From positions 1 to 63,565 of the forward strand of contig JAIOQW010000228.1 of NCBI GenBank assembly GCA_021108405.1: DNA of 63,565 bases. Reading direction: 5' to 3'. The notes under the pieces were generated by a model. That model had not been told where the DNA came from and did not search any database. It was given only the letters and a program-made list of their open reading frames with translations. A program made the position numbers and the translations under genes. Below, piece by piece: positions 39,219 through 54,586 of this stretch. The first letter of the stretch is position 1; each line of letters starts with the position of its first letter. Source of the stretch: Methanosarcinales archaeon. GTDB taxonomy: Archaea > Halobacteriota > Methanosarcinia > Methanosarcinales > Methanocomedenaceae.

Positions 39219-39261
39219 GCGTAAACTCCTTATTTATTGCATAAATAGATACCATATTACT

Positions 39262-39404
39262 GAGACCGTTACATTACATGTTGGTACTATTAAAATAACC
39301 GCAGATGAACACAGATAAACACGGATACGCTGCCTGAAAATCTGTGTTCATCTGTGTTTATCTGTGGTTTCATAAGATTCACCAACACGAATTGTAACGG
39401 TCAC
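39262..39404 (-). mobile_element. 143-bp MITE, copy 2 (inverted relative to copy 1), flanked by the 8-bp direct repeat ATATTACT
   Basis: It is the reverse complement of 34796-34938 with a single terminal difference (ggtcac versus ggtctc). The duplication atattact lies at 39254-39261 and 39405-39412. Confidence 0.9.
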
Positions 39405-39413
39405 ATATTACTT

Positions 39414-39556
39414 GAATGCAACGCCTTAAGGGACGTGAAGGAAACGCAGATTGACGCTAATATAAGGTTGCATCTGCGTAAATCAGTGTTTCCTGCACGC
39501 CCCTTTAGGCGTTGCAGGCATTCAACTCCGCAGGAGTTGAATGTATCTGCGTTTAA
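39414..39556. repeat. Z element: a ~110-nt imperfect long hairpin plus a perfect 9-bp stem hairpin
   Basis: The arms are gaatgcaacgccttaagggacgtgaaggaaacgcagat and atctgcg...gtttcctgcacgcccctttaggcgttgcaggcattc. The second hairpin is ttcaactcc gca ggagttgaa (39521-39541). A related element lies at 55383-55453. Confidence 0.75.
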
Positions 39557-39575
39557 TATAGTTGATCTATTGATC

Positions 39576-40592: not shown

Positions 40593-40855
40593 TTTTATTA
40601 CTCCATTCTAATAGTTGCATACGATTTTTATATGTCGTGTTACTTTTGTTGCTACATCATTCGCTATTTCATGTTATATAATTCTTTCGATAATAGTCAG
40701 TATCTCCAAAAAACTTTTTGATATTCCTTCAATTCCTGAGTCAGTTTCAAACGCTTTGATTTCAATTTAATTATGAAATAATTCTTATTTCTATATCCAT
40801 TTCAAAAAATACAATCTGTATTAATCATTGTTTATATTGTCTACCACAGGCTCAG

Positions 40856-41758
40856 TTATCTTTTATTTACTATTAAAAACACAACAGTATTATTAACCGG
40901 CGGCTTTGGCGGAACCCTTCGATATTCTTGAAAGACATCTGGTAATTCATAGCGTGAGAAAGTATCCAGTAATCTCCTGAGGCCCTTCTCATATTTTCTA
41001 TATGATATAACTGTCCCTGAAAGGAATACTTTTGCCATATGATTAAAGATATCCTTTTTAGGTTCGGCCTGGGCTGCTACCATAATAAGCTCACACTTTT
41101 CTTTTAAAGGAAGTGATTGGTGATTTCCTTCAATTATCTTGATCTGGTTCGAAAGTCCTAATTTTGATAATACTTTTTTTGAGAGATTAACTCTTTTGGG
41201 GTCTTGTTCTATCCCGATTCCCTTAAGCCCGTATTGATGGCAGAGGACTATGAGTGTTAAAGGCATTGGACCACTTCCGAGAAATACAACACGATCACCA
41301 GGTTTTAAACCGGCTCCCTCATATTCTACCTGAGCAAGTTGAAGATAATTTGAAAAATATGAAACATTTTCAAAAACGTCCCATGGATGATGACTTTCCA
41401 GTATAGAGTGTGCCTGTTCATTCTCTATTAATGCATAATACTGGCTTCTATACCTGGTAATTACATCAAATGCCAGTTCTAGTTCAGTATTATAAAGAAC
41501 TTCTTCGATATATTTATCGTCTATTTGTTGTGCAATCAGATTATCCAGCCTTTGAAAAGCTGATGTAAGAAATGTAGAATGATCCCGGCAATCTTGTATA
41601 TTATCAGATTTGATTAAAAGAAAATATATATCTACTATTTCTTTGATTACTGACCCTGTATAGTAACTTACAGTATTATATATATTTGGAATAGACTTTT
41701 GATATAATTGTGAACTATATTCTAATAAGATTTGATCATTGTTTTTCACGTATGTCAT
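40856..41758 (-). CDS. Nicotianamine synthase-like protein
   Basis: VSYFSNYLQLAQVEY followed by RVVFLGSGPMPLTLIVL and ELIMVAAQAEPKKDIFNHMAKVFLSGTVISYR reproduce the NAS pattern I remember (FpYy.NY..L...E; vaFiGSGPLPLTsivL; DvVflAALVGm...K). Confidence 0.65.
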   Translation of the reverse strand: MTYVKNNDQILLEYSSQLYQKSIPNIYNTVSYYTGSVIKEIVDIYFLLIKSDNIQDCRDHSTFLTSAFQRLDNLIAQQIDDKYIEEVLYNTELELAFDVITRYRSQYYALIENEQAHSILESHHPWDVFENVSYFSNYLQLAQVEYEGAGLKPGDRVVFLGSGPMPLTLIVLCHQYGLKGIGIEQDPKRVNLSKKVLSKLGLSNQIKIIEGNHQSLPLKEKCELIMVAAQAEPKKDIFNHMAKVFLSGTVISYRKYEKGLRRLLDTFSRYELPDVFQEYRRVPPKPPVNNTVVFLIVNKR

Positions 41759-42571: not shown

Positions 42572-43021
42572 TTGTCATTATTTGTTGATACAGGAATATT
42601 TTTTGCTGCATTTTCAAAAAATGACACTCATCATGTTGAAGCAGTAGGATTACTTGAATGTGCACTACTGGGAAAATGTGGAGCAATATACTCCTCTGAT
42701 TACATTTTTGACGAGACTGTGACACTTGCAAGGGTTCGGACACATAATTATGAAATAACTTCAAAGATTGGAGATATGATTAAAAACTCTTCAAGAATCA
42801 GACTATTAAGAGTGGATGAAGATATTTTTAATAAGGCGTGGGATATTTTTGGGAAATATCATAATAAAGAACTTAGTTTTACAGATTGTACATCGATAGC
42901 ATTAGTAAAAACACAAAAAATTGATATGATATTTAGTTTTGATCTTCATTTTGATGGAATACTTAATCGAATTAATTCGGTACATGATCTATCTACTGGA
43001 GTGCACCCCAAAAAAAGCTGA
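42572..43021 (+). CDS. vapC: PIN-domain ribonuclease toxin (VapC-like), TTG start
   Basis: LFVDTGIFFA (first Asp), SSDYIFDET and SFTDCTSIAL...FSFDLHF give the acidic quartet layout of PIN domains. Confidence 0.75.
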   Translation: MSLFVDTGIFFAAFSKNDTHHVEAVGLLECALLGKCGAIYSSDYIFDETVTLARVRTHNYEITSKIGDMIKNSSRIRLLRVDEDIFNKAWDIFGKYHNKELSFTDCTSIALVKTQKIDMIFSFDLHFDGILNRINSVHDLSTGVHPKKS

Positions 43022-43377: not shown

Positions 43378-45264
43378 TTACCTCTTACTCACTAACTTTC
43401 GTCTCATAACAGCAGCAGCAATCGTAAACATCACACCCACAATAAGCAATATCCCCCCACCCCACAACAGACTTGCAAAAGGATATTTCTTTACAGAAAA
43501 CTCGATATTCTCAATCCGTATGCTGGGTGTACAACTGGATCCCTGGAAATCAAGCTGTATATCACCAAGCAGACCATGTCTCACTCCGGGCTTAGCAATA
43601 AACCCGTACTGAAGGCTCTTCCAGAAAAGACTCTTCATTTCGTATGTACCACTATCGACCACTTCAACATTCAGGGTCTGGACCCAGTCAGTATCAGTAT
43701 ACTCAACATCATAATCAATAAAGCGCACACCTAAACCATTATCTTCCTTATATACCCCTTTTTCATCAAGACTATAATGAAAAGTATGTACAGTTGCAAA
43801 AGAAGTGCTTAATAACGCACCCAGAATTAGAAAAATAAAACCCGCATGGATCAAATTAATACCTGTAAGGTGAATGGCTATCTTCTTGTTCTTTACTTTA
43901 AGATCATTTATCATTTTAAAAATAATACTGGCTATGACAAAGAAAAATGCACTCAAGTATAAGAGTACATTGACTCCGGAAGGTATGACAATAACAAGTA
44001 TAAGAGACACAGCGAAATAAAACATAACTACAATAGACAGAGTATTATCCTTTACCCTGCCATACAGCATACAGACACCGGTAAGATAGGTCAGGGCCAG
44101 GATCAAACAAAAGAAGAAAAAATTATAATATTCAGGTGGCAGAATAACAGCTTTTCCGGTATAATAGAGGATTATATACACAGTAGGTCCCCATAATGAA
44201 ATAAATATCATGATAAGTAAGATCACGATCGTAAAATAAAACGTATTCTGGGGCTCAAAAACTTCACGAAAACCGCCTGTTACCGTAGTGAGAGAGATAT
44301 CATGTTTCAGTGCATATATTACCGAATAAAAAACCACTATCACAATAAAAATTAAAAGCATCCACCATGTGGGTGTTCCCGGGAAACTGTGGATAGAGCC
44401 GAAGATGTCACTCCTTGCAACTAAAGTGGTATACAAACATGCAAGAAATGCACTGATACATAACAAAGGAAAAAGTCGTTTATATTCACCCCTGTTAAAA
44501 CGTACCACAGCATGCAGAGCAGTAGTTAATAGGAGCCATATAGCCATGGTACATGATTGCAAAGGGTCCCACTGCCAGAAACCGTTCCATCCAAGCAGAC
44601 GGTTAGCCCATAATCCCCCCGTAAGCATACAGATGCTTAACATTATCCATGAAATTCGCAGATAAATCCTGATACCGGTCATCCTCTTCTCATTTACAGT
44701 AAGATAAGCAAGCGATACGGCTGCAGGTATAATAACAAACGCATATGCAATAAGAGTGGTAAAAATATGTACAGGCATAAGGATATCTATAAGTGCGGGA
44801 CTGATACCGTTACCTGATAAAGGCAACGATGCACCGCTTACAATAAATATTGAATTAAAAGGCGTCATAACGATCGCCAGAACAAGCAAGAATGCACAGC
44901 CAATTAATGCATACATGATAGCGATCTGGTCAATATGCGAACATTTTTTATTCAGTTCGGTAAATATCAAAACAACCAATACCGAAAGCCACGCCCATAC
45001 CAGATATGTTCCTTCCTGGCCTGTCAGTATAGCAGCAAGCCTGTAAAAAAGGGATAGATCCCCGCTGTCATGCTGCCAGACATAGATCAAACTATAATCA
45101 AGGAATATAAATGCATATGCCAGTAACAGTACACAAAGAGTGGATAGAACCGCTGCAGTCCTGATCAACAGGATGGCCTGCTTATTTCTCCCTGTGTACA
45201 TAACAACACCAGCTAAACAAGTAGACAGAAAAGTCAAATATAATAGAATATTTCCTACAGTCAT
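43378..45264 (-). CDS. ccmF: CcmF-like cytochrome c heme lyase / assembly protein
   Basis: 628 aa, about 15 TM helices, Trp-rich WWD-type motif GWNGFWQWDPLQS. The start overlaps the stop of the 2153-aa cytochrome by 4 bp. Confidence 0.75.
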   Translation of the reverse strand: MTVGNILLYLTFLSTCLAGVVMYTGRNKQAILLIRTAAVLSTLCVLLLAYAFIFLDYSLIYVWQHDSGDLSLFYRLAAILTGQEGTYLVWAWLSVLVVLIFTELNKKCSHIDQIAIMYALIGCAFLLVLAIVMTPFNSIFIVSGASLPLSGNGISPALIDILMPVHIFTTLIAYAFVIIPAAVSLAYLTVNEKRMTGIRIYLRISWIMLSICMLTGGLWANRLLGWNGFWQWDPLQSCTMAIWLLLTTALHAVVRFNRGEYKRLFPLLCISAFLACLYTTLVARSDIFGSIHSFPGTPTWWMLLIFIVIVVFYSVIYALKHDISLTTVTGGFREVFEPQNTFYFTIVILLIMIFISLWGPTVYIILYYTGKAVILPPEYYNFFFFCLILALTYLTGVCMLYGRVKDNTLSIVVMFYFAVSLILVIVIPSGVNVLLYLSAFFFVIASIIFKMINDLKVKNKKIAIHLTGINLIHAGFIFLILGALLSTSFATVHTFHYSLDEKGVYKEDNGLGVRFIDYDVEYTDTDWVQTLNVEVVDSGTYEMKSLFWKSLQYGFIAKPGVRHGLLGDIQLDFQGSSCTPSIRIENIEFSVKKYPFASLLWGGGILLIVGVMFTIAAAVMRRKLVSKR

Positions 45265-48200
45265 TTAATCCGTCTCCATATTAAGATCAATGACCCTGTA
45301 ATAATGATCAAAGGTAAGATCCATTTCAATATTAACTCTATAAACGCCATTCCACCTGGCTTCTTCACAGTAAGCAGGTCAATAGCATCTCTACTCCACT
45401 TACCTGATGAGTCCTTTACATGTACTAAAAAAATATACTGGCCCGGAGGCATATCCGATGTGTCGATCACAGCACCGAGCAGTACAGATGAATCGTTTGA
45501 ACCGCCAACCACGAATTGCAGCGGTTTACCAGTACCATCCTTACCCATATCATTGATGAAATACTCACCCACTGTTACCTTAGTAAGAGGCGGAAGTACC
45601 ACAGTACATTCCAAAAGGCTTACTTCCCCGCTAATTACTCTATCAGGTTTAAGTGAGACCGCAATACGGGGAATAAATTCACTGGTTGCAAGAGTATGAA
45701 GGCTGACAGGGTCACCGCCGCCGTGACATAACGTACAGTTAGGTGCAAAACCGTGAGCTGTACCAGAAGGTGAAAGTCCTTCCGTACCCATGTTAGTGGC
45801 ATTGAATGGTGATGCTCCTCCATGATAGGTATGACAGTCCTTACACCCGGTAATATTCCCTGTATCCCAGTCCTGCCACCCGGTATCCTGTACAGTACCC
45901 AGTGGATACGAGTCAAAGTGGAACCTGCTCTCTCCTGTAGCATTATGGCAGGATGTACAGGTAATTATAGTCCGGTTGAACAGAGGGTGTGAAATACTTG
46001 CCCTCATCCCACCTTTCAATTGAACTGAGGAATTATATTCAACTTTAAGAGATTCAATATCTTTGTGGCATTCCCGGCACCCTTCAAATGTTTCATCAGT
46101 AAGATTGCCAACTATTCGTGTAAGTTCATGGTATTTGTCTGCCTCCTCATTATGACAGATTATGCATGTTGTGGTCTTGTTTGCTGTCTTTATCTCTGCT
46201 CCCGCATAATGCATGGAACCGTATTCAGTGTGGCAATCCGTACACAATATACCTTCATAAGGCTGGTATTTACGTTCTTCATGCGGAGGATGACACTCAG
46301 TACATTCGACATCGTGCTTGATCGCACCTGTGAAATACCCCTTATCCACTAAAAACGGAGAATGTGACCTGCTTACACTTTCAGGGTCATGGCATTCTTC
46401 ACATCCGGAAACTACTTTTACTCCTGACCCGTGACGCAGTACATCTATCTGTGATTGTGGTTTATGCGGGAACTGTCCCTCAACACTGTGACATGGGAAA
46501 CAGTAGCCAAATGTCTCATTGGCATATTCCCTGACAATAAGACCGGTATGTATCGATTTGTTAGTAGTATTATGACATACGGAACAGGTATATTCATAAT
46601 TTTTCAAAGTGTTTACCTTATCTTCAGGTGCACCCGGATAGTGCGTGATGAGCGGGCTTAAATTGAACTTTTCCGCACCCTCTTTATCCACATGACAGTC
46701 CTCACACTGCCTGGTTATGGTTATACCAGTATCATGGAACATGGCCACTCCTTCACCTGCATGACATAGGGTGCAGTCATTGTCTGCATTGTGTTTGGTG
46801 ATCTGCGGAGCATCTCCCCATAATAGGCCGTTGGTTTCATTGTTATGACACACAGCACAGTGTGAAGTATGTAATAGATCATCCCTTGTTGAATAATGTG
46901 AAGTTGCAGCTTTTGCATTTTTTAAAGTGTCGTTGGTAAAGGTCAGTGAATGGCAGTCCCAGCACCCGGCATCTGTTGATATCTCAGCACCTGAATAATG
47001 TGTATATATCTGTACAGCATCGAATTTTGAATATGCATGACAGCTTACACAGGAGGTGGCTGGGTCAGTGCCAAAATAGGCTGTCGGGTGTTCTACAGGT
47101 TCATCACTGCTACCATTACCGTGACACGCCCAACATGCCTTGTTAGCTTCATCGGTGATAAAACCCGAATAGGTGGCATTGGAATTAAGACCAACATGCA
47201 CACCATCTTTAAATTTATTAATATCGATCTTTATAGGTGCTACACCATCACCTGCATGGCAGCTTATACAATCCGCAGTGTATATACCAGGTGTAATAGT
47301 ACCTACATGGAACGTTCCTGGTTCGCCCCCCAGAGTGATAAGGCTATCAAGAGGCAGATATTTTGGTTGTATGTTTGTCTGGAGTATAGAAGTATTTTCA
47401 TCAATGATCTTATGCTCTTGTGCGATCAACAGCACATCGCTCAGGGTAACAGACAGAGTAGACATACCTGTAAAAACACAGTCCAGCTTTGCGTGGAATA
47501 TTTCAATATCCCTATCAAGCATTTCCTGCTCATGCGTGAAATAGCTCCCCTGGGTGATCACGCTATCTTCTATCAATGTCTTGTTCCTATAGAGTCTAAA
47601 GTGTGCATTGTTCTGCTTTACACTCACATCCACAACTTGCAGACTAAAGTGCTCTCCAAGATCCCATATTTCTCCTGATGTAAGCATTTTTTTATCATGC
47701 TGTGCAAAATTGACAGCTATCCTGCCAAGAGTAATATTCTCATCTTTTCTTTGTAGTACAACATAGTCCGTACCATCCGGTATATTGGTACGGTATTCAC
47801 GGTCATGACAGGCATAGCATTGTTTATTTTCTGTTTCTATATGAATGCGTGACGAAAGCACATTTCCGCAAACTTCTGCTACAAAACTACCTCTTGATGA
47901 GAATATTTTCGTTACTATGAGATCAATAAGAGTGGTATTATTATCCTCGATCCCACTGATCTCGTATGTAAGCCTGCCGCCTTTTGATATGTAATCACGC
48001 TTAAGCAGTACACCGTTTTGCTTAATGTCAAACACTGCATCATTGGGTGTGGTCTCTATTAATACCAGTGAATAATTATCTATCAGCCTGAACGATTCAC
48101 CTGCACTCAGAGTCTCATTGATAAGGGTATAATGCGTATGATTTCTTTGATCAGGTGGATCTCCCCATCCATCTGCAATACCTGTATGACATTTGATACA

Positions 48201-51200
48201 ATCACTTGTATTCAACGCTTTTATCGGAGCATAATGAGCCGATGATATGGCAGCAGTCCTTGCAGTATATGCACCGTTCGAATGACATAGTTTGCAAGTG
48301 GCTGTGGTCGGTACAGTACTCATATCAGTAATGTGTTTATACACCAGCGGAGCATGTCCGAACTCATTAATATGACATTCATCACAGTCCTTCGGAGTGC
48401 TGCCGGGATGTCCCATGGTCACATTGATCATAAGAGTGAATTGTGCATCTCCATTTACATCCTGCACGAGTGCACTCCAGTTGCCTGGTCGGGGTAAGCT
48501 GATGTTTATACTGGTTCCAGTGTATGTGGTACCAGGTGCATACAGGACCAGGTTAAGTGTGCTGTCTCCTTCCCAATTGAGTGTAGTATTCAGGCTTGTG
48601 ATATTAGCAGGTAAGGTAAAGTTATATATTCGTGACTCTCTATCAACGACCATACTATTGATCTGCTGTCTGGGTGTGTGACAGTCGATGCAGTAGATAG
48701 TTTTATGTGCGGAATTCTTAAATTCGGCAATTGATATATGTTTATTACTCAATCTGTCATGGCATCCAAGGCAGGCATCATTTTCATCACTCATAGTAGG
48801 AAGTGTCAGGTTCTTATCATGTATCCTGGCTGAGCCATGACAGCCTGTACAGTCAATACCGTGTGTAACATTAGCAGTATATAACGGATCTGTGAATACA
48901 TCATTGAATTCCCTGCCTCCGTCAAGATGGCAGTACGAACAGTTGGTTACATTCCTACCATTCTCATTTTTCCACATATCGGTTCTCTGTCTGCCGTAGT
49001 GGGATACATAGTTTTTGGCTTCCCTGTATTTCACATCGTCTACGGGGGGTGTAGTTGTCAGTGATTTATTATGACATATCGTACAGTTAGCAATACTTGA
49101 ATTTGTGTGTATGTCCTCTCCGAGAGGCTGGTGTTCTCTTACCTGCAATGGTTTGCGGATAAGGTATTCGCTGTTAAGTGGAGTAGCAGTATCATGACAG
49201 TCCTCACACTGCGGCAGCTCTGATGCACGTCTTGTATGGAACGGGTCAATGAGTTGCTGTGAATAGTTATTATGGCATCCCCAGCAGACCTGGCTTATGC
49301 TGGTATAGTTGGATAAGTCGAAATCTCCTGTAATATTATAATGGATACTCTTGAAAAACCCGGTACTATTAATTATTGGCAAACCAGGGTTTGCATTCGA
49401 ACCTCCTTCCAAATGACATTCCGTACAGTCTCCTCCGGCAGCTTCTTCAGGCTCAAAATGAGGGTCACTGTGGCAAGAGAGGCAGTCAGTATAAGACATA
49501 TCATAATATCCGGCCATGCTATGTCCGCCTGGCCGCTGTATATGACAGGTAATACAGTCAGCAATAGTGATATCATGGAATGCATTATGGCATAACCTGC
49601 ACCCAATATCATCTTTTCCATCGTTATTAAGGTCGGTATGAGTGTATGAAAAACCATTACTATCCCATGCAGGCATGGGTTTTGATGTCCTGGCTCCTGC
49701 TAAAGTTCCATTAGCACCGGGGTTATGACATTCATTGCAATTGTAAGGTAAATGGATCACAGGTTTGTTCTTTATCGGATGACTTGAAGTGATGGTATAA
49801 TTGATGGTACCACCTGAGCGTGAAAAGACCCTGGCTATCCATATACCCTCACCAGGAACGGATTCAAAAATAACACCATGGAGATCTTCACCGGACGGAT
49901 AATATATTTTTGATCCGCTAGCAAATACAGCAGTACCATCGACATCCGGCACGCAGTAGGTACCGTCCCATCGATCATTAGTGTTCAGGTCCGCAAGACC
50001 ATTAGTATCATTGATAGGTCCGACAAGTGAGAGATATATTCTATCATTGTTATCTTCACAGTTCACTGTTATATTAATAGACCCGGAATCATCCATATTA
50101 ATGATATATGTCCTTACCTGTGCTTCATAAGACATGAACTCAGGAGAATAGTATCCTATGGTATCGGTTATCTGTGTGTCAGACCCAAAAGGCGGGTATT
50201 CCAGACCTTTACCCTGTGTTTTATGGTATATTCCATGACATGCTTCACAGATGACATTCTTATGCACTCCGGAAGGGTTCACATAAGCTGTTCCTGTTAA
50301 CGATGACGGGAATGCGATATTATAGGTAGTACTTTCGCTCTGGTCATGAATGAAACCTGTATGGCAATCAGTGCAATTGGCATCTGTTACATGAGAGGTT
50401 TCATTGAAGTTGGTCTGTGAGAGCCCACGGCCTACGGATGTATCGGAATAGATCTGTATAGTGGTATTTGATTGATCAAATATAGTGGTCCAGTTACTTT
50501 CTCCTTTAATAAACCCACCTTTATGACCATATATGAGGTCATGGAGATGGACTGGTGTTGCAGGTAAGAACTGTGATGCAAATGTACTATGGCACATTGA
50601 CATGCAATTGCCTCCCAGACCTGATGTGATGTTGTCAGGATGTATCATTACAGTTGGGTTTCTTGTCGAAGGGTCACCCTGCGGACTCCATGAATCATGA
50701 CAACCTCTTGCCTGGCAGCCCCATAGAGTAGTATTGAAACTGGTGGATACTGATAGGTCTTCTGACTGTATTGTTGTATTGAACTCAATATGATACTGGC
50801 CTGCATAGGCATCAACAGGGAAATCATATATTCCATAATAGAACAGGTGGACATAATCCTGTGCAAGATCGATAGAGGTTGTATTATTAGTAAAAATGTT
50901 GCTGACATGGTCATAATGAGGATATGTGAAATTTACTTTCAATACAGGGGGCTGGTTTTCCGCATCATCACTGAATATCACAGTCCCGCCTTTTTGCACT
51001 GTAATATCGTCAATCCACCACCCTGCATTGGCATTTCCATTTGAGACACAGTGGAATGCGACCATCATTTTTTCTCCTTCATATTTTGTCAGGTTGATCT
51101 CTTCCGTCACCCATCCACCACTATCTCCTGAGTACTGTTTGAGTATATCCCAGGTTGCTCCTCTATCTGTAGAGACCTTCACAAACCCGAAAACACCCGT

Positions 51201-51722
51201 TATATTATATGTTGTTTGGAATGTCAGGTTGGTTGTAGGGGGATCAGCCATTGGTTGTGCTCCGGTGAGCACACTATTGAGCCAATTATATAATGTTATA
51301 AAAATTCCTTTTTTTTCTGTGGAATGAGACATGTACATCAAATCAATATCATCGAATGGGTCTTGCGATGAAGAATAATTATCAAGATAATGCCAGGAAT
51401 GTATTCCATACCCTGCCTTCCAGCTATAGCTACCTCCATGTGAGATTGAACTGTCCCATGTCCATGCCGGAGGTGAAAGGCCGCTGATCGGTGTGGTATT
51501 TTCCATAATACTTACTGATATTATGTTCTTTTGCTGCATACCACTTCCCAGGTCCCACCAGCTCCATCCTGTTGTATTCCCACTACTCAGGTATCCAAGC
51601 TGGTATGGTGTCTGACCGTAGTTGATCCTTATAGAATAATCCTGTGCTTGAACAACATCTAACCATACACTGCAGGATAGTAGTATTAGTAATAATATCC
51701 CAACAGTGCATATGTACTTCAT
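45261..51722 (-). CDS. Giant multiheme c-type cytochrome (2153 aa) with non-heme insert domains and a C-terminal TM anchor
   Basis: Signal peptide MKYICTVGILLLILLSCSVWLDVVQA. By manual count there are 36 CxxCH motifs plus one CQARGCH (Cx4CH). There is a non-heme N-terminal beta-sandwich-like region (STDRGATWDIL...GWWIDDITV), two PPC-like inserts and two S-layer-type domains. The C-terminus is KKPGGMAFIELILKWILPLIIITGSLILIWRRIK. Confidence 0.9.
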   Translation of the reverse strand: MKYICTVGILLLILLSCSVWLDVVQAQDYSIRINYGQTPYQLGYLSSGNTTGWSWWDLGSGMQQKNIISVSIMENTTPISGLSPPAWTWDSSISHGGSYSWKAGYGIHSWHYLDNYSSSQDPFDDIDLMYMSHSTEKKGIFITLYNWLNSVLTGAQPMADPPTTNLTFQTTYNITGVFGFVKVSTDRGATWDILKQYSGDSGGWVTEEINLTKYEGEKMMVAFHCVSNGNANAGWWIDDITVQKGGTVIFSDDAENQPPVLKVNFTYPHYDHVSNIFTNNTTSIDLAQDYVHLFYYGIYDFPVDAYAGQYHIEFNTTIQSEDLSVSTSFNTTLWGCQARGCHDSWSPQGDPSTRNPTVMIHPDNITSGLGGNCMSMCHSTFASQFLPATPVHLHDLIYGHKGGFIKGESNWTTIFDQSNTTIQIYSDTSVGRGLSQTNFNETSHVTDANCTDCHTGFIHDQSESTTYNIAFPSSLTGTAYVNPSGVHKNVICEACHGIYHKTQGKGLEYPPFGSDTQITDTIGYYSPEFMSYEAQVRTYIINMDDSGSINITVNCEDNNDRIYLSLVGPINDTNGLADLNTNDRWDGTYCVPDVDGTAVFASGSKIYYPSGEDLHGVIFESVPGEGIWIARVFSRSGGTINYTITSSHPIKNKPVIHLPYNCNECHNPGANGTLAGARTSKPMPAWDSNGFSYTHTDLNNDGKDDIGCRLCHNAFHDITIADCITCHIQRPGGHSMAGYYDMSYTDCLSCHSDPHFEPEEAAGGDCTECHLEGGSNANPGLPIINSTGFFKSIHYNITGDFDLSNYTSISQVCWGCHNNYSQQLIDPFHTRRASELPQCEDCHDTATPLNSEYLIRKPLQVREHQPLGEDIHTNSSIANCTICHNKSLTTTPPVDDVKYREAKNYVSHYGRQRTDMWKNENGRNVTNCSYCHLDGGREFNDVFTDPLYTANVTHGIDCTGCHGSARIHDKNLTLPTMSDENDACLGCHDRLSNKHISIAEFKNSAHKTIYCIDCHTPRQQINSMVVDRESRIYNFTLPANITSLNTTLNWEGDSTLNLVLYAPGTTYTGTSINISLPRPGNWSALVQDVNGDAQFTLMINVTMGHPGSTPKDCDECHINEFGHAPLVYKHITDMSTVPTTATCKLCHSNGAYTARTAAISSAHYAPIKALNTSDCIKCHTGIADGWGDPPDQRNHTHYTLINETLSAGESFRLIDNYSLVLIETTPNDAVFDIKQNGVLLKRDYISKGGRLTYEISGIEDNNTTLIDLIVTKIFSSRGSFVAEVCGNVLSSRIHIETENKQCYACHDREYRTNIPDGTDYVVLQRKDENITLGRIAVNFAQHDKKMLTSGEIWDLGEHFSLQVVDVSVKQNNAHFRLYRNKTLIEDSVITQGSYFTHEQEMLDRDIEIFHAKLDCVFTGMSTLSVTLSDVLLIAQEHKIIDENTSILQTNIQPKYLPLDSLITLGGEPGTFHVGTITPGIYTADCISCHAGDGVAPIKIDINKFKDGVHVGLNSNATYSGFITDEANKACWACHGNGSSDEPVEHPTAYFGTDPATSCVSCHAYSKFDAVQIYTHYSGAEISTDAGCWDCHSLTFTNDTLKNAKAATSHYSTRDDLLHTSHCAVCHNNETNGLLWGDAPQITKHNADNDCTLCHAGEGVAMFHDTGITITRQCEDCHVDKEGAEKFNLSPLITHYPGAPEDKVNTLKNYEYTCSVCHNTTNKSIHTGLIVREYANETFGYCFPCHSVEGQFPHKPQSQIDVLRHGSGVKVVSGCEECHDPESVSRSHSPFLVDKGYFTGAIKHDVECTECHPPHEERKYQPYEGILCTDCHTEYGSMHYAGAEIKTANKTTTCIICHNEEADKYHELTRIVGNLTDETFEGCRECHKDIESLKVEYNSSVQLKGGMRASISHPLFNRTIITCTSCHNATGESRFHFDSYPLGTVQDTGWQDWDTGNITGCKDCHTYHGGASPFNATNMGTEGLSPSGTAHGFAPNCTLCHGGGDPVSLHTLATSEFIPRIAVSLKPDRVISGEVSLLECTVVLPPLTKVTVGEYFINDMGKDGTGKPLQFVVGGSNDSSVLLGAVIDTSDMPPGQYIFLVHVKDSSGKWSRDAIDLLTVKKPGGMAFIELILKWILPLIIITGSLILIWRRIK

Positions 51723-52729
51723 ATGGTTTCAGCTCTCTTTTCTTTTTTCTTATGCCTTAACTTGATACTTAATATAAAGAAAAAAATAGACAATATGCAC
51801 ATGAGAACTAATTGGTCAAGTGAAAATTCTGGTAGCCATGCCAGGTTATATACATTCACACTGATGATCTGCAACACCAATACCAATATGAAAATAACCG
51901 GAAATGCCATCAGGACCTTACCGGCAGTATGACGGAGTTGTGATGTGTTTATATTATTATCCAGATCAAAAAGCAGGACACCTTCAATGGTATATTTACA
52001 CCATGTATAATAAGCACTTACATATATCACCAGTCCGATACCCATACAACCGATCACTATATTATTTCCATAGAAAATGTCACCCATGATCGTGGTAAAA
52101 GGAATAACAAGAATAGGGATAAATAACCATGCCCATATTGAAGAACGCTGTAATAAATGAAAATCATAAGTAATTTCCAGCCACCAGACTGAATATAACC
52201 CGATAAATGCCAGTATAGCGTAACTGCCCCAAACATTCAACAGAAATATTAATAAAATTAGTGAAAAATTGATTAAGATGACCAATCGGAGAAATCGTGA
52301 TATCTGTTGGGAAATATCTATCCCGAATGCCGGATCTGAACCTGGTATCTTTAGTTCGACCGAACGTTTGCCAAGTCTTTCAATATTAAGATTCATGGTG
52401 TTTAGCCGTTCTTCTATGGAATTGATCACTACCTGGGTCCCGGCAATTTCTTCAAGGACCGGCTCTAACCTGGTATAAATTTCTTTTTCAAAACCAGTAT
52501 CGATCAGTTGTTCTCTTACAATGGTTCTTCTGGTAAGGTTTATTCCTCCCCACAGGGCACACAATCCGATCAATAACAATGTGAAATTAATGATAAAATT
52601 ATCGGGTTCACCTGATTTGCCTGATAGTATGTCTATCACATTCGCAAATGATAAATAGATCAGGTATAATGCTGTGCATAACAGGCAAACAATGCTAAAT
52701 TTTTCAATCAATGATATTCCCGGTCTCAA
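51719..52729 (-). CDS. Unknown polytopic membrane protein (about 8 TM helices with a ~70-aa coiled-coil loop)
   Basis: 336 aa with no motif recognised. It has 4-bp overlaps with both the signal peptidase (upstream) and the giant cytochrome (downstream). Confidence 0.6.
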   Translation of the reverse strand: MRPGISLIEKFSIVCLLCTALYLIYLSFANVIDILSGKSGEPDNFIINFTLLLIGLCALWGGINLTRRTIVREQLIDTGFEKEIYTRLEPVLEEIAGTQVVINSIEERLNTMNLNIERLGKRSVELKIPGSDPAFGIDISQQISRFLRLVILINFSLILLIFLLNVWGSYAILAFIGLYSVWWLEITYDFHLLQRSSIWAWLFIPILVIPFTTIMGDIFYGNNIVIGCMGIGLVIYVSAYYTWCKYTIEGVLLFDLDNNINTSQLRHTAGKVLMAFPVIFILVLVLQIISVNVYNLAWLPEFSLDQLVLMCILSIFFFILSIKLRHKKKEKRAETI

Positions 52730-53502
52730 TGTCTACTTCCCCCTGGTGTGAAAGTTATAAAAATATATAGTAATATACAGAGAATGAATATCACCAGTCC
52801 GAGGTTTTTAATACCCTTGATGACCTGGCTTATCCTGTACATCTGCGAACCATACTCTGTGATCTCAATATTACTGTCATCAAATAGTAGATATTCACCA
52901 ATGTTCTTCACTACTATCGGTCTACCATTGATAAGTACTGCTTCTCCCTGTATCAGGTCTTTATCCAATACCCAGTTATCTACTAATTCACACGCATCAC
53001 CCCTTGTTCGTATCTCGCTGTTTGAGCATGAATATACCCTGTGAATAACAGGCATCTTTACGTCTTCTATATCGAACATGATGATGTCTCCCTGCTGTGG
53101 GTCTACCTTCAGGTTTTGAATTAATACGAGGTCCTTTATTTCAAGGGTCGGAGACATGCTGCCTGAGGTTATAATTGCAAAAAAGACAAACGAGTTAAGG
53201 ATAACATATGCAATTGATCCGGTTATCAACAGGGGAAACAATACTGACAGAAGTTTGGGTCTTTTTGATATTTCATCATACCGTTTCATCTGTTGGTATA
53301 TAGGATATGTCTTATGGGATGTTCTTATTTTTTGTCGGTTAAGTGTGGAAGGGGTATTGTTTGGTTTATTGATACAGACCCTGTACAGGATAAATAATGA
53401 AAAAAGCCATAATAAATAAATTATAACAATAGATGGGTGATCATAACATAAGTATAATACACCATAGATTATTCCTCCGATCATCTGTTCAATAAATGAC
53501 AT
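52726..53502 (-). CDS. Signal peptidase I, archaeal/ER (Ser-His) type, with an extended N-terminal membrane region
   Basis: Box motifs SGSMSPTL, GDIIMF, IHRV and TRGDACELVDNW, plus a C-terminal TM helix. Confidence 0.75.
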   Translation of the reverse strand: MSFIEQMIGGIIYGVLYLCYDHPSIVIIYLLWLFSLFILYRVCINKPNNTPSTLNRQKIRTSHKTYPIYQQMKRYDEISKRPKLLSVLFPLLITGSIAYVILNSFVFFAIITSGSMSPTLEIKDLVLIQNLKVDPQQGDIIMFDIEDVKMPVIHRVYSCSNSEIRTRGDACELVDNWVLDKDLIQGEAVLINGRPIVVKNIGEYLLFDDSNIEITEYGSQMYRISQVIKGIKNLGLVIFILCILLYIFITFTPGGSRH

Positions 53503-53540
53503 TTTTATAAAAAAAATTAGGTTGACTTGATGTCAACCTA

Positions 53541-54257
53541 TCAACCTGTCGTCTGGTTTGGTGCCCAGTATGTACTATCACTTGTTCTTTCGCTGCTGTT
53601 CATGGAAATATCTAATTCCCAGCCGTTAGATGTGTAATTGGTGTGGTTTGCTGCTATAATTATCCCACCCTCATTACGTTCCATGGTAATATTGAGTCCT
53701 ATCATTGTGTGACATGCCAGACAGGCAGTATTTTCAGATACGTCATCTCCACTTAAGGTTTTTGTGGCATTATAGAAGTCGCCATGTGCCTCTTTTGGAT
53801 TAAGTAGTTGTGAACTGGCATTCAGGTGGCAGTCAACACATGCTATCGTCAGTGCAGCATGGGGTGTATCCTGTGTTCGCCATGATGAATTCCAGTCACC
53901 GATTTCTGTTAGACTTCCGCTTTCATTGAATATCTCAAAACCATAACCACTAATGTTGGTTGTATTGATCCCGTACATTGACAACCGAGTTTCATTAACC
54001 TGATGGCAGAAACATCCGGCTTCTTGGGAATTTCCTTCATTTTCATATGACGAGTGCGCTCCACCTCTGGCTATGTTGGCTTTCCATTCACCAACCTCGG
54101 CTGCATGACATCTCTCACACATATCATATTGGCTCTCTGCAGTTCTTACACTAAACCACTGGTGCTGGCCTACGAACATTGATAATGTACCTGGTATAAT
54201 GAATAGGCCGATAGCGATAACTGCAATACCTAATACTATTATTGCTCGTTTGTCCAT
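53541..54257 (-). CDS. Membrane-anchored tetraheme c-type cytochrome
   Basis: N-terminal TM helix (IIVLGIAVIAIGLFIIPG) and four CxxCH motifs (CERCH, CFCH, CVDCH, CLACH). It is the first gene of the operon. Confidence 0.85.
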   Translation of the reverse strand: MDKRAIIVLGIAVIAIGLFIIPGTLSMFVGQHQWFSVRTAESQYDMCERCHAAEVGEWKANIARGGAHSSYENEGNSQEAGCFCHQVNETRLSMYGINTTNISGYGFEIFNESGSLTEIGDWNSSWRTQDTPHAALTIACVDCHLNASSQLLNPKEAHGDFYNATKTLSGDDVSENTACLACHTMIGLNITMERNEGGIIIAANHTNYTSNGWELDISMNSSERTSDSTYWAPNQTTG

Positions 54258-54586
54258 CTACTAACCCCCGATTAATTATTGGATTCTCTTTCTTGTTGAT
54301 ATAAGGTATATTTTTTTATAAAATTTTTATGTAATAGTTACAGGAAAAACTGTTTTACTTTATTAATTGTTCTTCCCCCCGAGTGCTTTATATTAAGGCA
54401 ATCGTGATTATAGTATGATAATATAATAATATAATAATAACCCACTACACTGATTATATTTATAAGTTTGATACTATATATATTTATTGAAGAACTTTAA
54501 ATCTGCCATACTACTATGATTTCTTTAAGTTCAGCAGTGAACATTATATATCTTCTTACTGTCAAATCATTTAACTTGGAATAGGT

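What the first reader, a model, noticed from the sequence alone, without database searches (positions are those of the whole stretch)
43378..54257. Translationally coupled five-gene operon for a ~37-heme, S-layer-domain cytochrome: a self-contained extracellular electron transfer module
The minus-strand gene order is:
- a membrane-anchored tetraheme cytochrome (53541-54257);
- a 38-bp gap;
- signal peptidase I (52726-53502);
- a 336-aa polytopic membrane protein (51719-52729);
- a 2153-aa cytochrome (45261-51722);
- a CcmF-like heme lyase (43378-45264).

The last four genes are linked by ATGA 4-bp overlaps. The giant protein has a signal peptide, 36 CxxCH plus one Cx4CH by my manual count, a non-heme N-terminal beta-sandwich-like domain, two PPC-like inserts, two S-layer-type domains, an Ig-like C-terminal region and a C-terminal TM helix.

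Very large multiheme cytochromes with S-layer domains have been proposed as envelope-spanning electron conduits in ANME-2 and Methanoperedens-type archaea. What I have not seen described is the packaging seen here. The conduit is encoded together with an inner-membrane tetraheme entry point, a private signal peptidase, an unknown membrane protein and a private heme lyase in one coupled transcription unit.
Basis: partly seen in the sequence, partly recalled or inferred. Interest (0 to 1): 0.8.

Follow-up and report, generated by a model that had tools for sequence, protein, structure and literature searches.

The report
Known ANME giant-cytochrome maturation gene cluster
This is the already published gene cluster that methane-oxidising archaea use to make a giant cell-wall-spanning multiheme cytochrome, and its small upstream cytochrome looks like a subunit of an extracellular "nanowire" rather than a membrane entry point.

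Summary
The five minus-strand genes are real and sit at the stated coordinates. The giant protein has 37 heme motifs: 35 CxxCH, one Cx3CH and one Cx4CH. All are conserved in orthologues; shuffles of the sequence give 0.14. The window comes from an ANME-2b relative (88-90% protein identity to ANME-2 archaeon HR1).

The packaging is not new. Chadwick et al. 2022 (PLoS Biol, Fig 12B) describe the ANME MHC-B cytochrome next to the heme-lyase paralogue CcmF2. In ANME-2a/2b/3 a signal peptidase and an "8x TMH" membrane protein sit upstream.

- **The "membrane-anchored tetraheme entry point".** It is a homologue of AvECN (PDB 8E5G), the tetraheme subunit of the Archaeoglobus veneficus extracellular cytochrome nanowire. 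It probably has a cleavable signal peptide. Its second heme motif is shortened to CxCH.
- **A conserved hairpin plus T-run.** It follows this gene in every ANME-2a/2b and GoM-Arc1-type orthologous locus examined. Uniform co-transcription is therefore doubtful.

Only two junctions are ATGA overlaps. The third is TTGA and is specific to ANME-2b.

In metagenomes, AvECN-like cytochrome, peptidase and 8xTMH also occur as a trio without MHC-B or CcmF2.

Interest is low to moderate.

The parts
54311..54326 (-). AT-rich TATA-like box (TTTTATAAAAAAATAT) about 55-70 nt upstream of the small cytochrome's ATG. A GGGGG Shine-Dalgarno-like element lies at 54265-54269. Putative promoter and ribosome-binding site for the cluster.
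   Evidence: Read directly from the sequence. SD-like elements precede the orthologous gene in all loci checked. Promoter function is inferred, not tested.
53541..54257 (-). 238-aa AvECN-family (also called 'MmcX', a 'small ANME MHC') tetraheme c-type cytochrome. It has 3 CxxCH (residues 47, 140, 179) and one CxCH (82-85). Four further invariant His (32, 68, 133, 158) are available as distal ligands. It has 12 N-glycosylation sequons. The probable signal peptide would be cleaved after T-L-S26.
   Evidence: invariant residues. (8E5G_A is the only significant PDB hit, at E = 2.3e-19 with the profile and 6.6e-12 with the single sequence). (AVA|KFTGQH in distant homologues aligns with TLS|MFVGQH). 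(8E5G is AvECN).
53503..53540 (-). 38-nt intergenic element. A 9-bp hairpin (GGTTGAC-loop-GTCAACC, 53518-53540) starts just after the cytochrome's stop codon and is followed by T8 and then A-rich sequence up to the peptidase ATG. Probable terminator or attenuator, or an RNA-stabilising 3' stem.
   Evidence: It is the first-listed terminator-like site in a 13-kb scan. Position and structure are conserved, with compensatory changes, in more than 10 distinct orthologous loci. Function is inferred.
52726..53502 (-). 258-aa Sec11/archaeal-type signal peptidase I (S26B). An N-terminal extension of about 85 aa carries hydrophobic helices, and there is a C-terminal hydrophobic segment. The catalytic Ser (SGSMSP), His (IHRV) and Asp (RGD) are present.
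   Evidence: Peptidase_S26 scores 31.5 bits against a cutoff of 22.9. TIGR02228 scores 50.5 against 51.85. The catalytic motifs align with human SEC11A/C.
51719..52729 (-). 336-aa '8x TMH' polytopic membrane protein of unknown function, with a TTG start. The conserved core is residues 5-260: six TM helices plus a 79-residue charged loop (67-145). The invariant residues are WW182-183 and P210.
   Evidence: No Pfam, NCBIfam or PDB hit. Only 67 representative clusters among 1.84 billion proteins. Alignments. The low-confidence AF2 model has 8 helices plus a long helix spanning residues 42-119. Some relatives carry N-terminal TPR and zinc-ribbon fusions. Charge distribution.
45261..51722 (-). 2153-aa ANME MHC-B giant multiheme cytochrome.
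- Signal peptide: aa 1-26.
- Heme-free InhA-like MAM / 'peptidase M6-like' domain: aa 27-335, with no HEXXH.
- 19 heme motifs, including Cx4CH at 336 and Cx3CH at 373.
- Two S-layer (DUF1608-type) modules with one heme motif between them.
- 17 further heme motifs.
- A beta-rich C-terminal region and a TM anchor.
   Evidence: 90% identical to the HR1 orthologue. The architecture matches the description of ANME MHC-B in PMC9012536.
47271..48185 (-). S-layer region of the giant protein (aa 1180-1484). Module 1 spans about 1203-1284, the CxxCH motif is at 1302, and module 2 spans about 1340-1446.
   Evidence: PF07752 scores 55-56 bits for module 2 and E = 0.011 for module 1. A profile of 11 orthologues hits the M. 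acetivorans S-layer protein MA0829 (3U2G/3U2H) at E = 3.9e-6.
45279..45347 (-). C-terminal transmembrane anchor of the giant protein (aa 2126-2148, followed by RRIK).
   Evidence: Sequence read directly. No TM predictor was available.
43378..45264 (-). 628-aa CcmF2, a divergent CcmF/NrfE-family heme lyase paralogue. It is translationally coupled to the giant gene by an ATGA overlap.
   Evidence: Full-length match to TIGR00353/TIGR03145, but far below the equivalog cutoffs. Cytochrom_C_asm hit. Hit to T. thermophilus CcmF 6ZMQ at E = 6e-18, with the WWD motif and three His aligned. Adjacent to MHC-B in all 11 genome loci.

Best explanation
This is an ANME-2b copy of the published ANME 'MHC-B / CcmF2' cytochrome cluster.

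**What each gene is**
- **Giant protein.** It is ANME MHC-B. After Sec export and signal-peptide removal it is thought to stay anchored in the cytoplasmic membrane by its C-terminal helix. Its 17 C-terminal hemes would lie in the pseudoperiplasm. Its two DUF1608-type modules, with one heme between them, would insert into the S-layer. Its 19 N-terminal hemes and the MAM-like domain would be displayed outside. That arrangement gives an electron path through the protein wall.
- **CcmF2.** It is a dedicated heme-lyase paralogue, coupled to MHC-B by a conserved 4-nt overlap. It attaches heme to this very large substrate, which includes conserved Cx3CH and Cx4CH sites.
- **First gene.** It is not a quinol-oxidising membrane anchor. 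It is a secreted, heavily N-glycosylated tetraheme of the AvECN family, the family of the A. veneficus extracellular cytochrome nanowire subunit. It most likely acts beyond the membrane, either as an abundant shuttle or as a polymerising wire that exchanges electrons with MHC-B.
- **Peptidase and 8xTMH.** The Sec11-type peptidase and the 8xTMH protein form a module with this small cytochrome. The module also exists on its own. The peptidase most likely removes the signal peptide of the AvECN-like protein, and possibly that of MHC-B.
- **Hairpin plus T-run.** The conserved element after the first gene probably lets the small cytochrome be made in large excess over the maturation genes.

**Shown:** gene identities, homologies, synteny and motif conservation.

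**Inferred:** topology, substrates of the peptidase and lyase, attenuation, and filament formation.
For: **Known cluster**
- Literature: PMC9012536 sections 23-24 and Fig 11/12 legends.
- Orthology to ANME-2 archaeon HR1 at 88-90% identity for all five proteins, in the same order.

**MHC-B features**
- InhA-like MAM N-terminal domain, S-layer domain, heme motif in the S-layer linker, C-terminal TM.
- The motif set is almost fully conserved across the orthologues.

**CcmF2**
- CcmF family, with the WWD motif and three conserved His aligned to 6ZMQ; a candidate fourth His is seen only by eye.
- The 4-nt overlap with MHC-B is conserved in L004, L006, L009 and L011; in L001 (HR1) the ATG reads ACG.

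**Small cytochrome belongs to the AvECN family**
- 8E5G_A is the only significant PDB hit.
- All four heme sites and all four extra His are colinear with AvECN.
- 8E5G is identified as the AvECN nanowire in PMC12954529 and PMC11176372.

**Cleavable signal peptide**
- Homologues carry AVA|KF-GQH and AMA|KF-GQH where the window has TLS|MF-GQH.

**Trio module**
- AvECN-like cytochrome, peptidase and 8xTMH occur together without MHC-B or CcmF2 in L038-L040. They also occur in a very distant locus, L050.

**Hairpin plus T-run**
-.

**Peptidase**
- Catalytic triad intact.
Against: - No expression, proteomic or structural data exist for this locus.
- AF2 models of the small cytochrome and the 8xTMH protein were of low confidence, so the AvECN relationship rests on sequence only.
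- The second heme site is CxCH in ANME-2a/2b. I found no precedent for this spacing, so the protein could be a triheme here.
- In at least one ANME-2 genome the AvECN-like gene stands alone, without the peptidase.
- In other lineages the 8xTMH gene lies near CcmF2 without the peptidase (L030, L034, L043), or lies alone in ANME-1 (L045-L049). The functional links within the cluster are therefore not obligatory.
- There is no room for a separate promoter before the peptidase gene. The hairpin and T-run must be leaky if the downstream genes are expressed.
- The hairpin stem is partly conserved in sequence (GTTGAC/GTCAAC). It could instead be a protein-binding palindrome.
Confidence: 0.72

Rival explanations
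1. A self-contained, previously undescribed five-gene extracellular electron transfer module. The first gene would be an uncleaved, membrane-anchored tetraheme of the CymA/NapC type. It would take electrons from the membrane quinol pool and pass them to the giant conduit. All five genes would form one coupled transcript.
For: - An N-terminal hydrophobic helix followed closely by heme motifs resembles NapC/NirT-type anchors.
- One of 91 homologues carries a precomputed PF03264 (NapC/NirT) flag.
- The five-gene order is strongly conserved.
- Chadwick et al. note that small single-anchor MHCs could in principle act like CymA.
Against: - The packaging is already published.
- The window protein gives no PF03264 hit even at E <= 0.1.
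- Its only solved relative is an extracellular filament subunit.
- The -3/-1 positions (T-x-S) and the aligned AxA sites in homologues indicate a cleaved signal peptide.
- A conserved hairpin plus T-run separates it from the other genes.
- Only two of the three claimed ATGA overlaps exist.
Confidence: 0.08
2. The reading of Chadwick et al. applied strictly. The peptidase, the 8xTMH protein (as a heme-handling protein) and CcmF2 are all dedicated to maturing MHC-B. The small cytochrome is only a neighbouring, independently transcribed soluble carrier with no special link to the peptidase or 8xTMH.
For: - PMC9012536 section 24.
- The 8xTMH/MHC-B 4-nt overlap is conserved in all lineages.
- In some lineages 8xTMH lies near CcmF2 and MHC-B without a small cytochrome (L030, L034, L043).
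- The hairpin plus T-run sets the small cytochrome apart.
Against: - The peptidase and 8xTMH genes occur directly downstream of AvECN-like genes where no MHC-B or CcmF2 is present (L038-L040, L050-L052).
- The large loop of 8xTMH contains no Trp.
- Three lines of evidence place that loop in the cytoplasm: the positive-inside rule, the poly-Lys C-terminus, and cytoplasmic TPR and zinc-ribbon fusions at the N-terminus of relatives. This does not fit a WWD-like heme-handling loop on the outer face.
- In L030, L034 and L043, an ORF of 137-145 aa separates CcmF2 from 8xTMH. By eye it resembles an RNase P protein subunit.
Confidence: 0.3
3. The small cytochrome is a monomeric pseudoperiplasmic shuttle. 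It is related to AvECN but does not polymerise, and it ferries electrons from membrane complexes to the C-terminal hemes of MHC-B. The hairpin simply stabilises its abundant mRNA.
For: - Chadwick et al. propose that small MHCs act as intermediates between the membrane and the S-layer.
- The CxCH change at heme site 2 and only about 35-40% identity to AvECN over the best-aligned N-terminal stretch (by eye from the alignment) leave room for functional divergence.
- Filaments have not been shown for this protein.
Against: - All eight His that would give bis-His ligation are retained. They include His32 only 6 residues from the predicted mature N-terminus.
- The solved filaments compared in a 2023 preprint, AvECN among them, are reported to need axial His ligands from neighbouring subunits in every case except OmcZ (10.1101/2023.06.12.544705).
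- A dedicated signal peptidase next to a subunit gene is the logic seen for fibre subunits, as in B. subtilis tapA-sipW-tasA (established knowledge).
Confidence: 0.35

Closest known systems
[quoted passage not shown] 2022, PLoS Biol 20:e3001508, Fig 11 and 12B)
   Same: - Four of the five genes, in the same order.
- The same MHC-B architecture: peptidase-M6-like N-terminus, S-layer domain with one heme motif in its linker, and a C-terminal TM.
- CcmF2 immediately downstream.
- 88-90% protein identity to the ANME-2b HR1 locus.
   Different: - The text I could read does not mention the small cytochrome as a conserved fifth member, nor the hairpin plus T-run after it. Figures are not held, so I could not see Fig 12B.
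- The paper predicts a large periplasmic Trp-rich loop in 8x TMH. Here the large loop has no Trp and is predicted to be cytoplasmic.
AvECN, the extracellular cytochrome nanowire subunit of Archaeoglobus veneficus (PDB 8E5G; Baquero et al. 2023 Cell; family called 'MmcX' in PMC11176372)
   Same: - About 230-260 aa with an N-terminal signal-like helix ending P-x-T-x-S-(M/L)-F-x-G-Q-H-x-W.
- Four heme sites and four additional His in the same order.
- The family is reported from ANME-1, ANME-2, ANME-2d, Syntrophoarchaeales and Archaeoglobales, and as very highly expressed in one Methanocellales MAG, Met12.
   Different: - Heme site 2 is CxCH instead of CxxCH in the window and in most ANME-2a/2b orthologues.
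- Polymerisation is untested.
- The primary paper was not readable here, so I could not compare its gene-neighbourhood analysis.
MtrCAB / porin-cytochrome conduits of Shewanella and Geobacter
   Same: Proposed functional analogue: a multiheme chain crossing the outermost cell layer (Chadwick et al.).
   Different: There is no beta-barrel porin. A single polypeptide with an S-layer domain would do the crossing. There is no sequence relationship beyond generic multiheme hits (DmsE-family, 66 bits against a cutoff of 192).
NrfE-type specialised CcmF paralogues (NrfEFG lyase for the CxxCK site of NrfA)
   Same: A dedicated CcmF paralogue encoded next to its presumed cytochrome substrate, which carries non-standard heme motifs.
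   Different: No NrfF/NrfG partners are present in the cluster. The non-standard motifs here are Cx3CH, Cx4CH and possibly CxCH, not CxxCK.
tapA-sipW-tasA operon of Bacillus subtilis (a dedicated type I signal peptidase for a fibre subunit)
   Same: A private Sec11/SipW-like signal peptidase encoded next to a secreted protein from a family known to polymerise. This is an analogy drawn from established knowledge.
   Different: The proteins are unrelated. No evidence here shows that cleavage is specific or required.

Membership tests
ANME MHC-B (Chadwick et al. 2022) | N-terminal heme-free region similar to peptidase M6 (InhA) domains | tested here: met
   PF20773 InhA-like_MAM scores 29-31 bits against a cutoff of 26.9, at residues about 195-256. 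The first 335 aa contain no heme motif and no HEXXH.
ANME MHC-B (Chadwick et al. 2022) | S-layer (DUF1608) domain with a single heme-binding motif in its inter-subdomain linker | tested here: met
   PF07752 scores 56 bits. A second, weak module lies upstream. CxxCH at residue 1302 is the only motif between 1175 and 1485. The orthologue profile hits MA0829 (3U2G) at E = 3.9e-6.
ANME MHC-B (Chadwick et al. 2022) | C-terminal transmembrane helix, and 20-80 heme motifs | tested here: met
   37 motifs. A hydrophobic stretch at 2126-2148 is followed by RRIK. The TM helix was judged by eye because no predictor was available.
ANME MHC-B (Chadwick et al. 2022) | Encoded immediately upstream of the CcmF2 paralogue | tested here: met
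   ATGA overlap in the window. The same adjacency is seen in all 11 genome loci and in the metagenome loci.
CcmF/NrfE heme lyase (System I) | WWD motif and four conserved His (two periplasmic, two in TM helices); about 13-15 TM helices | tested here: inconclusive
   - WNGFWQWDP aligns with the WWD motif of T. thermophilus CcmF.
- Three His (in VHIF, LHAV and IHSF) align with conserved His of 6ZMQ.
- A candidate fourth His (LIHAG) was seen only by eye.
- The TIGR00353 match is full-length but scores 141 bits against a cutoff of 569, so the protein is a divergent paralogue.
CcmF2 clade (Chadwick et al. 2022) | Placement in the CcmF2 clade of the CcmF phylogeny | not tested
   No tree was built. 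Support is indirect: 44-89% identity to the CcmF genes that follow MHC-B in HR1, Methanocomedens, HMMV2 and GoM-Arc1.
Archaeal/ER-type signal peptidase I (S26B, Sec11-like) | Catalytic Ser and His (no Lys) plus a conserved Asp; S26 fold | tested here: met
   PF10502 is above its cutoff. TIGR02228 scores 50.5 against 51.85, just below. SGSMSP, IHRV and RGD align with the catalytic motifs of human SEC11A/C.
AvECN-type extracellular cytochrome nanowire subunit | Significant sequence homology to AvECN, with four c-heme sites and bis-His ligands in the same order | tested here: met
   8E5G_A is hit at E = 6.6e-12 with the single sequence and 2.3e-19 with the profile. All 8 His are colinear. Site 2 is CxCH rather than CxxCH.
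AvECN-type extracellular cytochrome nanowire subunit | Polymerises into an extracellular filament with a continuous heme chain and inter-subunit His ligation | not testable with these tools
   The AF2 monomer had a pLDDT of 52 and Foldseek gave nothing. This needs cryo-EM or heme-aware multimer modelling.
NapC/NirT/CymA quinol dehydrogenase | Match to the Cytochrom_NNT family (PF03264), with an uncleaved N-terminal anchor | tested here: not met
   No PF03264 hit at E <= 0.1. The N-terminal segment aligns with cleavable AxA signal peptides in homologues.
'8x TMH' ANME/Archaeoglobales membrane protein (Chadwick et al. 2022) | Eight predicted TM helices, no annotation, distribution restricted to ANME and their EET-capable relatives | tested here: met
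   - The AF2 model has eight long helices.
- No Pfam, NCBIfam or PDB hit.
- 67 representative clusters in 1.84 billion proteins.
- Named members come from Methanosarcinales, ANME-2, Argoarchaeum and Methanophagales.
- Most distant members have only the first six helices.
'8x TMH' ANME/Archaeoglobales membrane protein (Chadwick et al. 2022) | Large periplasmic loop with several conserved Trp (the basis for a heme-handling role) | tested here: not met
   - The only large loop (67-145) has no Trp and 11 K+R.
- The C-terminus is poly-Lys.
- Some relatives have TPR and zinc-ribbon domains, which lack a signal peptide, fused to the N-terminus.
- Together these place the loop in the cytoplasm.
- The conserved Trp residues (182, 183, 201, 243) lie in or at the ends of TM4-TM6.
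- No dedicated topology predictor was available.

The most novel reading that the evidence does not exclude
The cluster joins two modules into one wiring kit.

- **Module 1.** An AvECN-type nanowire subunit with its own Sec11-type signal peptidase and a platform protein (8xTMH). Cleavage after T-x-S26 would expose an N-terminal arm (MFVGQH...). Its His32 would then ligate a heme of the neighbouring subunit, so the private peptidase would license polymerisation.
- **Module 2.** The S-layer conduit MHC-B with its private lyase CcmF2. MHC-B would be the socket through which the wire is charged.
- **Stoichiometry.** The conserved hairpin plus T-run would set a high ratio of subunit to machinery.
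- **Heme site 2.** The CxCH site would be a new, functional c-heme attachment motif with a one-residue spacing.
Probability: 0.2. Interest if true: 0.7.

Novelty: already known. Interest (0 to 1): 0.3.

Why it matters
Direct interspecies electron transfer by ANME archaea controls much of the marine methane sink, and none of its proposed parts has been tested biochemically. This locus adds no new system. It does sharpen the published model in three ways:

- **A fifth conserved member.** The cluster includes a gene from the one archaeal cytochrome family of this type for which an extracellular filament structure has been solved.
- **The maturation genes travel with the small cytochrome.** The peptidase and 8xTMH genes are found with the AvECN-like cytochrome even where MHC-B is absent.
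- **The heme-handling idea for 8xTMH does not fit.** Its predicted topology places the large loop in the cytoplasm.

These points give concrete experiments for anyone expressing ANME cytochromes in Methanosarcina.

Tried and rejected
- The search for homologous proteins timed out on the giant protein and twice on 8xTMH. It later worked for the small cytochrome and for 8xTMH. The giant protein was never searched this way.

**Structure predictions that led nowhere**
- The AF2 model of the small cytochrome had a pLDDT of 52. The model of 8xTMH had a pLDDT of 56.
- Foldseek against the PDB gave no match with E <= 0.001 for either model. They were used only for helix counting.

**Sequence searches with no result**
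- Direct PDB sequence searches with the whole giant protein, its S-layer region alone, and 8xTMH gave nothing. Only the orthologue profile of the S-layer region found MA0829.
- The 'PPC-like' inserts gave no Pfam or PDB hit, even with an 11-sequence profile of insert 1. That label is left unverified.
- Rfam and tRNA scans of the window found nothing.

**Literature gaps**
- Baquero et al. 2023 (Cell; PMC10330847) is not held. I could not check whether they already reported a peptidase or membrane protein next to AvECN genes.
- A search for a CXCH heme motif returned nothing.

**Ideas considered and rejected**
- *A NapC/CymA-type role for the first gene.* Rejected because there is no PF03264 hit and a cleavable signal peptide is indicated.
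- *A leaderless peptidase transcript starting from the TTTATAAAA box.* Rejected because the box abuts the ATG and the peptidase N-terminus (MSFIEQ) is conserved.

Full report
**1. What is in the sequence**

I re-translated them.

- **53541-54257: 238-aa cytochrome.** It has three CxxCH motifs (47, 140, 179) and a C-F-C-H at 82-85.
- **52726-53502: 258-aa S26 signal peptidase.**
- **51719-52729: 336-aa hydrophobic protein.** It starts with TTG.
- **45261-51722: 2153-aa cytochrome.**
- **43378-45264: 628-aa CcmF-like protein.**

The giant protein has 35 CxxCH, one Cx3CH (373) and one Cx4CH (336), 37 in all. Two thousand shuffles of its own residues give a mean of 0.14 CxxCH and a maximum of 2. 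The motifs are conserved in five orthologues at 54-90% identity, including the two long-spaced ones; the only exceptions are at 984 and 1113 in two ANME-2a-type loci.

The junctions are as follows:

| Junction | Form |
|---|---|
| small cytochrome / peptidase | 38-nt gap |
| peptidase / membrane protein | TTGA overlap |
| membrane protein / giant | ATGA overlap |
| giant / CcmF | ATGA overlap |

**2. Where the window comes from**

A scan of one genome per species with the CcmF-like protein returned 11 loci. The best is 'ANME-2 cluster archaeon HR1' at 89% identity. The others are Methanosarcinales and Methanocomedens MAGs (57-60%), ANME-3 HMMV2 (51%), and GoM-Arc1 (44%).

All five window proteins are 88-90% identical to the HR1 locus, in the same order. 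The rest of the window is ordinary archaeal chromosome: thermosome, AspRS, SMC, a P-type ATPase, CbiMQ, nicotianamine synthase and an IS transposase. There are no tRNA or Rfam hits.

**3. The packaging is already published**

Chadwick et al. 2022 (PMC9012536) define 'ANME MHC-B' by four features: an N-terminal heme-free peptidase-M6-like region, an S-layer domain with a single heme motif in its linker, a C-terminal TM helix, and 20-80 hemes.

[quoted passage not shown] These are a signal peptidase and an unannotated '8x TMH' membrane protein. All are interpreted as dedicated maturation machinery (Fig 12B legend).

The window protein meets each MHC-B criterion:
- InhA-like MAM domain above threshold, with no HEXXH.
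- PF07752 S-layer at 56 bits.
- CxxCH at 1302 as the only motif between two S-layer modules.
- A C-terminal hydrophobic helix.
- An 11-orthologue profile of residues 1180-1484 finds the M. acetivorans S-layer protein MA0829 (3U2G/3U2H). It is the only significant PDB hit, at E = 3.9e-6.

**4. The first gene is not an inner-membrane entry point**

The window protein alone hits one PDB chain, 8E5G_A, at E = 6.6e-12. A profile of six orthologues hits it at 2.3e-19. 8E5G is AvECN, the tetraheme subunit of the Archaeoglobus veneficus extracellular cytochrome nanowire (PMC12954529; PMC11176372).

The alignments are colinear for all four heme sites and for four further His:
- GQH32
- GAH68
- TPH133AA
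- EAH158

In 30 homologues exactly eight His are invariant. That is what four bis-His hemes need.

The N-terminal segment ends in an invariant P-x-T-x-S-M-F-x-G-Q-H. In distant homologues the same position reads AVA|KFTGQH and AMA|KFTGQH, which are textbook signal-peptidase sites. These align with T-L-S26|M-F-V-G-Q-H in the window. The helix is therefore most likely a cleaved signal peptide.

Other observations agree. The protein has 12 N-glycosylation sequons in 238 residues, no C-terminal anchor, and no NapC/NirT hit.

PMC11176372 places homologues with three to five heme motifs in ANME-1, ANME-2, ANME-2d, Syntrophoarchaeales and Archaeoglobales. It found one of them among the two most highly expressed genes of a Methanocellales MAG. 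The solved filaments compared in a 2023 preprint, AvECN among them, are reported to need axial His from neighbouring subunits in every case except OmcZ (10.1101/2023.06.12.544705). Whether the ANME-2b protein polymerises cannot be told here.

**5. Synteny beyond the published cluster**

Among the genome loci, every one with enough upstream DNA, except the HMMV2-type loci described below, has the five-gene order: L001, L004, L006, L009 and L011.

I then scanned metagenomes with an 8xTMH alignment. This gave 38 loci, which I analysed with profiles built from the orthologues. Five arrangements appear:

- **(a) Full five-gene cluster.** Fifteen loci at 53-64% identity have AvECN-like, peptidase and 8xTMH in that order, followed by MHC-B and CcmF2 where the contig reaches that far (two of the fifteen catch only the end of the AvECN-like gene). 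Most ANME-2a-type loci carry a second, weaker AvECN-like paralogue further upstream, and several of these a roughly 990-aa 23-heme protein beyond it.
- **(b) MHC-B, CcmF2, a small unrelated ORF, then 8xTMH.** Seen in L030, L034 and L043. There is no peptidase.
- **(c) Trio only.** AvECN-like (duplicated in L040), peptidase and 8xTMH, with no MHC-B or CcmF2. Seen in L038-L040, in MAGs labelled 'Methanosarcinales archaeon'.
- **(d) 8xTMH alone.** It sits among housekeeping genes in Methanophagales (ANME-1) (L045-L049).
- **(e) A very distant paralogue.** At 26% identity (L050-L052), it lies in a cluster with two AvECN-like tetrahemes, a peptidase, a six-heme AvECN-like protein, and large MHCs.

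Two further cases are relevant. One ANME-2 genome has the AvECN-like gene alone (L053). ANME-3 HMMV2-type loci have a 3130-aa fused MHC plus CcmF2 and nothing else upstream.

The five-gene cluster therefore looks like a union of two modules that also exist separately. None of the linkages is obligatory.

**6. A conserved element after the first gene**

The first-listed terminator-like site in a 13-kb scan lies in the 38-nt gap. It is a 9-bp hairpin just after the stop codon, followed by T8.

The same arrangement, a hairpin followed by runs of 5-9 T, then A-rich sequence and the peptidase ATG, recurs in more than 10 distinct orthologous loci. The stems differ in complementary ways: GGTTGAC/GTCAACC, AAGTTGACC/GGTCAACTT, GTTGATCC/GGATCAAC and GATGATCCAT/ATGGGTCATC. 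L006 and L023 have a longer stem.

There is no room for a separate promoter. The peptidase N-terminus (MSFIEQ) is conserved, so the downstream genes must be read through. The most economical reading is an attenuator or an mRNA-stabilising 3' stem. Either would give far more small-cytochrome message than machinery message.

Part of the stem is conserved in sequence, so a protein-binding palindrome is not excluded.

The 8xTMH/MHC-B 4-nt overlap is conserved in all five genome loci. The MHC-B/CcmF2 overlap is conserved in four of them; in L001 (HR1) the ATG reads ACG and the nearest ORF start lies downstream. The peptidase/8xTMH overlap exists only in ANME-2b.

**7. The accessory proteins**

- **Peptidase.** It aligns best with human SEC11A/C. 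The Ser (SGSMSP), His (IHRV) and Asp (RGD) motifs are intact. It scores just under the archaeal SPase I equivalog cutoff. It carries an extra hydrophobic N-terminal extension of about 85 aa.
- **CcmF2.** It aligns with T. thermophilus CcmF (6ZMQ, E = 6e-18) across the WWD motif and three conserved His. It scores far below the CcmF/NrfE cutoffs, as expected for a divergent paralogue.
- **8xTMH.**
  - It has no Pfam, NCBIfam or PDB relatives.
  - It has only 67 representative clusters in 1.84 billion proteins.
  - Its conserved core is the first six helices plus a 79-residue charged loop. WW182-183 and P210 are invariant.
  - The loop has no Trp and 11 K+R, and the C-terminus is poly-Lys.
  - Several relatives have TPR and zinc-ribbon domains fused to the N-terminus.
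  - Together these place both termini and the big loop in the cytoplasm. This does not fit the 'large periplasmic Trp-rich loop' on which a heme-handling role was proposed.
  - I can offer only a scaffold or platform role, as inference.

**8. Most likely mechanism**

Shown: the identities, homologies, motif conservation and synteny described above.

Inferred:
- MHC-B is exported and matured by the general Ccm system plus CcmF2.
- It is anchored by its C-terminal helix and threads the S-layer through its two DUF1608-type modules.
- 17 hemes lie inside the S-layer, one within it, and 19 outside.
- The AvECN-family cytochrome is made in excess, cleaved after Ser26 (probably by the adjacent peptidase), glycosylated, and acts outside the membrane as a shuttle or polymer that exchanges electrons with MHC-B.
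- The membrane quinol (methanophenazine) oxidase is encoded elsewhere. Chadwick et al. propose Mco.

**9. Verdict**

It is an orthologue of a cluster described in 2022, in a close relative of a genome used in that study.

The modest additions are:
- the AvECN-family identity and conserved membership of the first gene;
- its CxCH site;
- the conserved hairpin plus T-run;
- the separate existence of the cytochrome-peptidase-8xTMH trio;
- the topology argument against a heme-handling loop in 8xTMH.

I could not read Baquero et al. 2023, which may already cover part of this.

Noticed in passing
window 54003-54014 (minus strand; residues 82-85 of the small cytochrome); same position in L001, L004, L009 and most metagenome loci: The second heme site is C-F-C-H, with one residue between the cysteines. 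The invariant flanks are G81 and Q86. AvECN and the L006, L011, L023 and L038-L040 orthologues have CxxCH at this position. I know of no precedent for a CxCH c-heme site, and a literature search found none.
   Followed up: partly
window 53503-53540; L001, L004, L009, L011, L014, L017, L020, L022, L028: A hairpin just after the stop codon is followed by T-runs and then an A-run that reaches the next ATG. Part of the stem (GTTGAC/GTCAAC) is conserved in sequence across lineages whose proteins are only about 55% identical. It could be an operator palindrome rather than, or as well as, a terminator.
   Followed up: partly
P0011, P0014, P0015 (relatives of the 8xTMH protein), P0021: Some family members carry long N-terminal fusions: TPR repeats, an acidic linker and zinc ribbons. 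One 1483-aa protein embeds the core between a beta-propeller/Ig region and a long charged repeat tail. This hints at a scaffold role and fixes the N-terminus in the cytoplasm.
   Followed up: partly
L014, L016, L019-L022, L025-L028 (ANME-2a-type loci), about 1-5 kb upstream of the five-gene cluster: These loci carry a second, divergent AvECN-like paralogue (255-257 aa, 3 CxxCH; E between about 1e-8 and 1e-13 against my profile). Where the upstream DNA is present, they also carry a protein of roughly 815-995 aa (ORFs cut at the locus edge) with 20-23 hemes that resembles the giant cytochrome. The ANME-2b window has a divergent SprT-like gene there instead.
   Followed up: no
L007, L008 (ANME-3 HMMV2-type), positions 606-10004: A 3130-aa MHC with 45 CxxCH has a C-terminal 1450 aa that match the window's giant protein. 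CcmF2 follows it directly. No peptidase, 8xTMH or small cytochrome lies in the short sequence remaining upstream (about 600 nt).
   Followed up: no
window 37351-41758 (minus strand): A metal-uptake neighbourhood: CbiQ, CbiM, a CarboxypepD_reg-like protein, a DUF4198 protein with a PGF-CTERM archaeosortase signal, and a nicotianamine synthase homologue.
   Followed up: no
window 31880-34717 (minus strand): A 945-aa protein with DUF3344 (245 bits) and CARDB domains, probably a large surface protein.
   Followed up: no
window 429-1325 (minus strand), 42572-43021 (+), 56749-58050 (minus strand), 5572-6966 (minus strand): Mobile or defence-type genes are scattered in the window: an IS transposase (DUF772 plus DDE_Tnp_1), a PIN-domain protein directly downstream of CcmF2, and two archaeal ATPases (AAA_14/DUF4143 and ATPase_2/DUF234).
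   Followed up: no
L030, L034, L043 between CcmF2 and the 8xTMH gene: An ORF of 137-145 aa (MRLLPSLRxRxRYLAF...) separates CcmF2 from 8xTMH in these lineages. By eye it resembles the archaeal RNase P protein component Pop5. The adjacency of 8xTMH to CcmF2 there may be loose.
   Followed up: no
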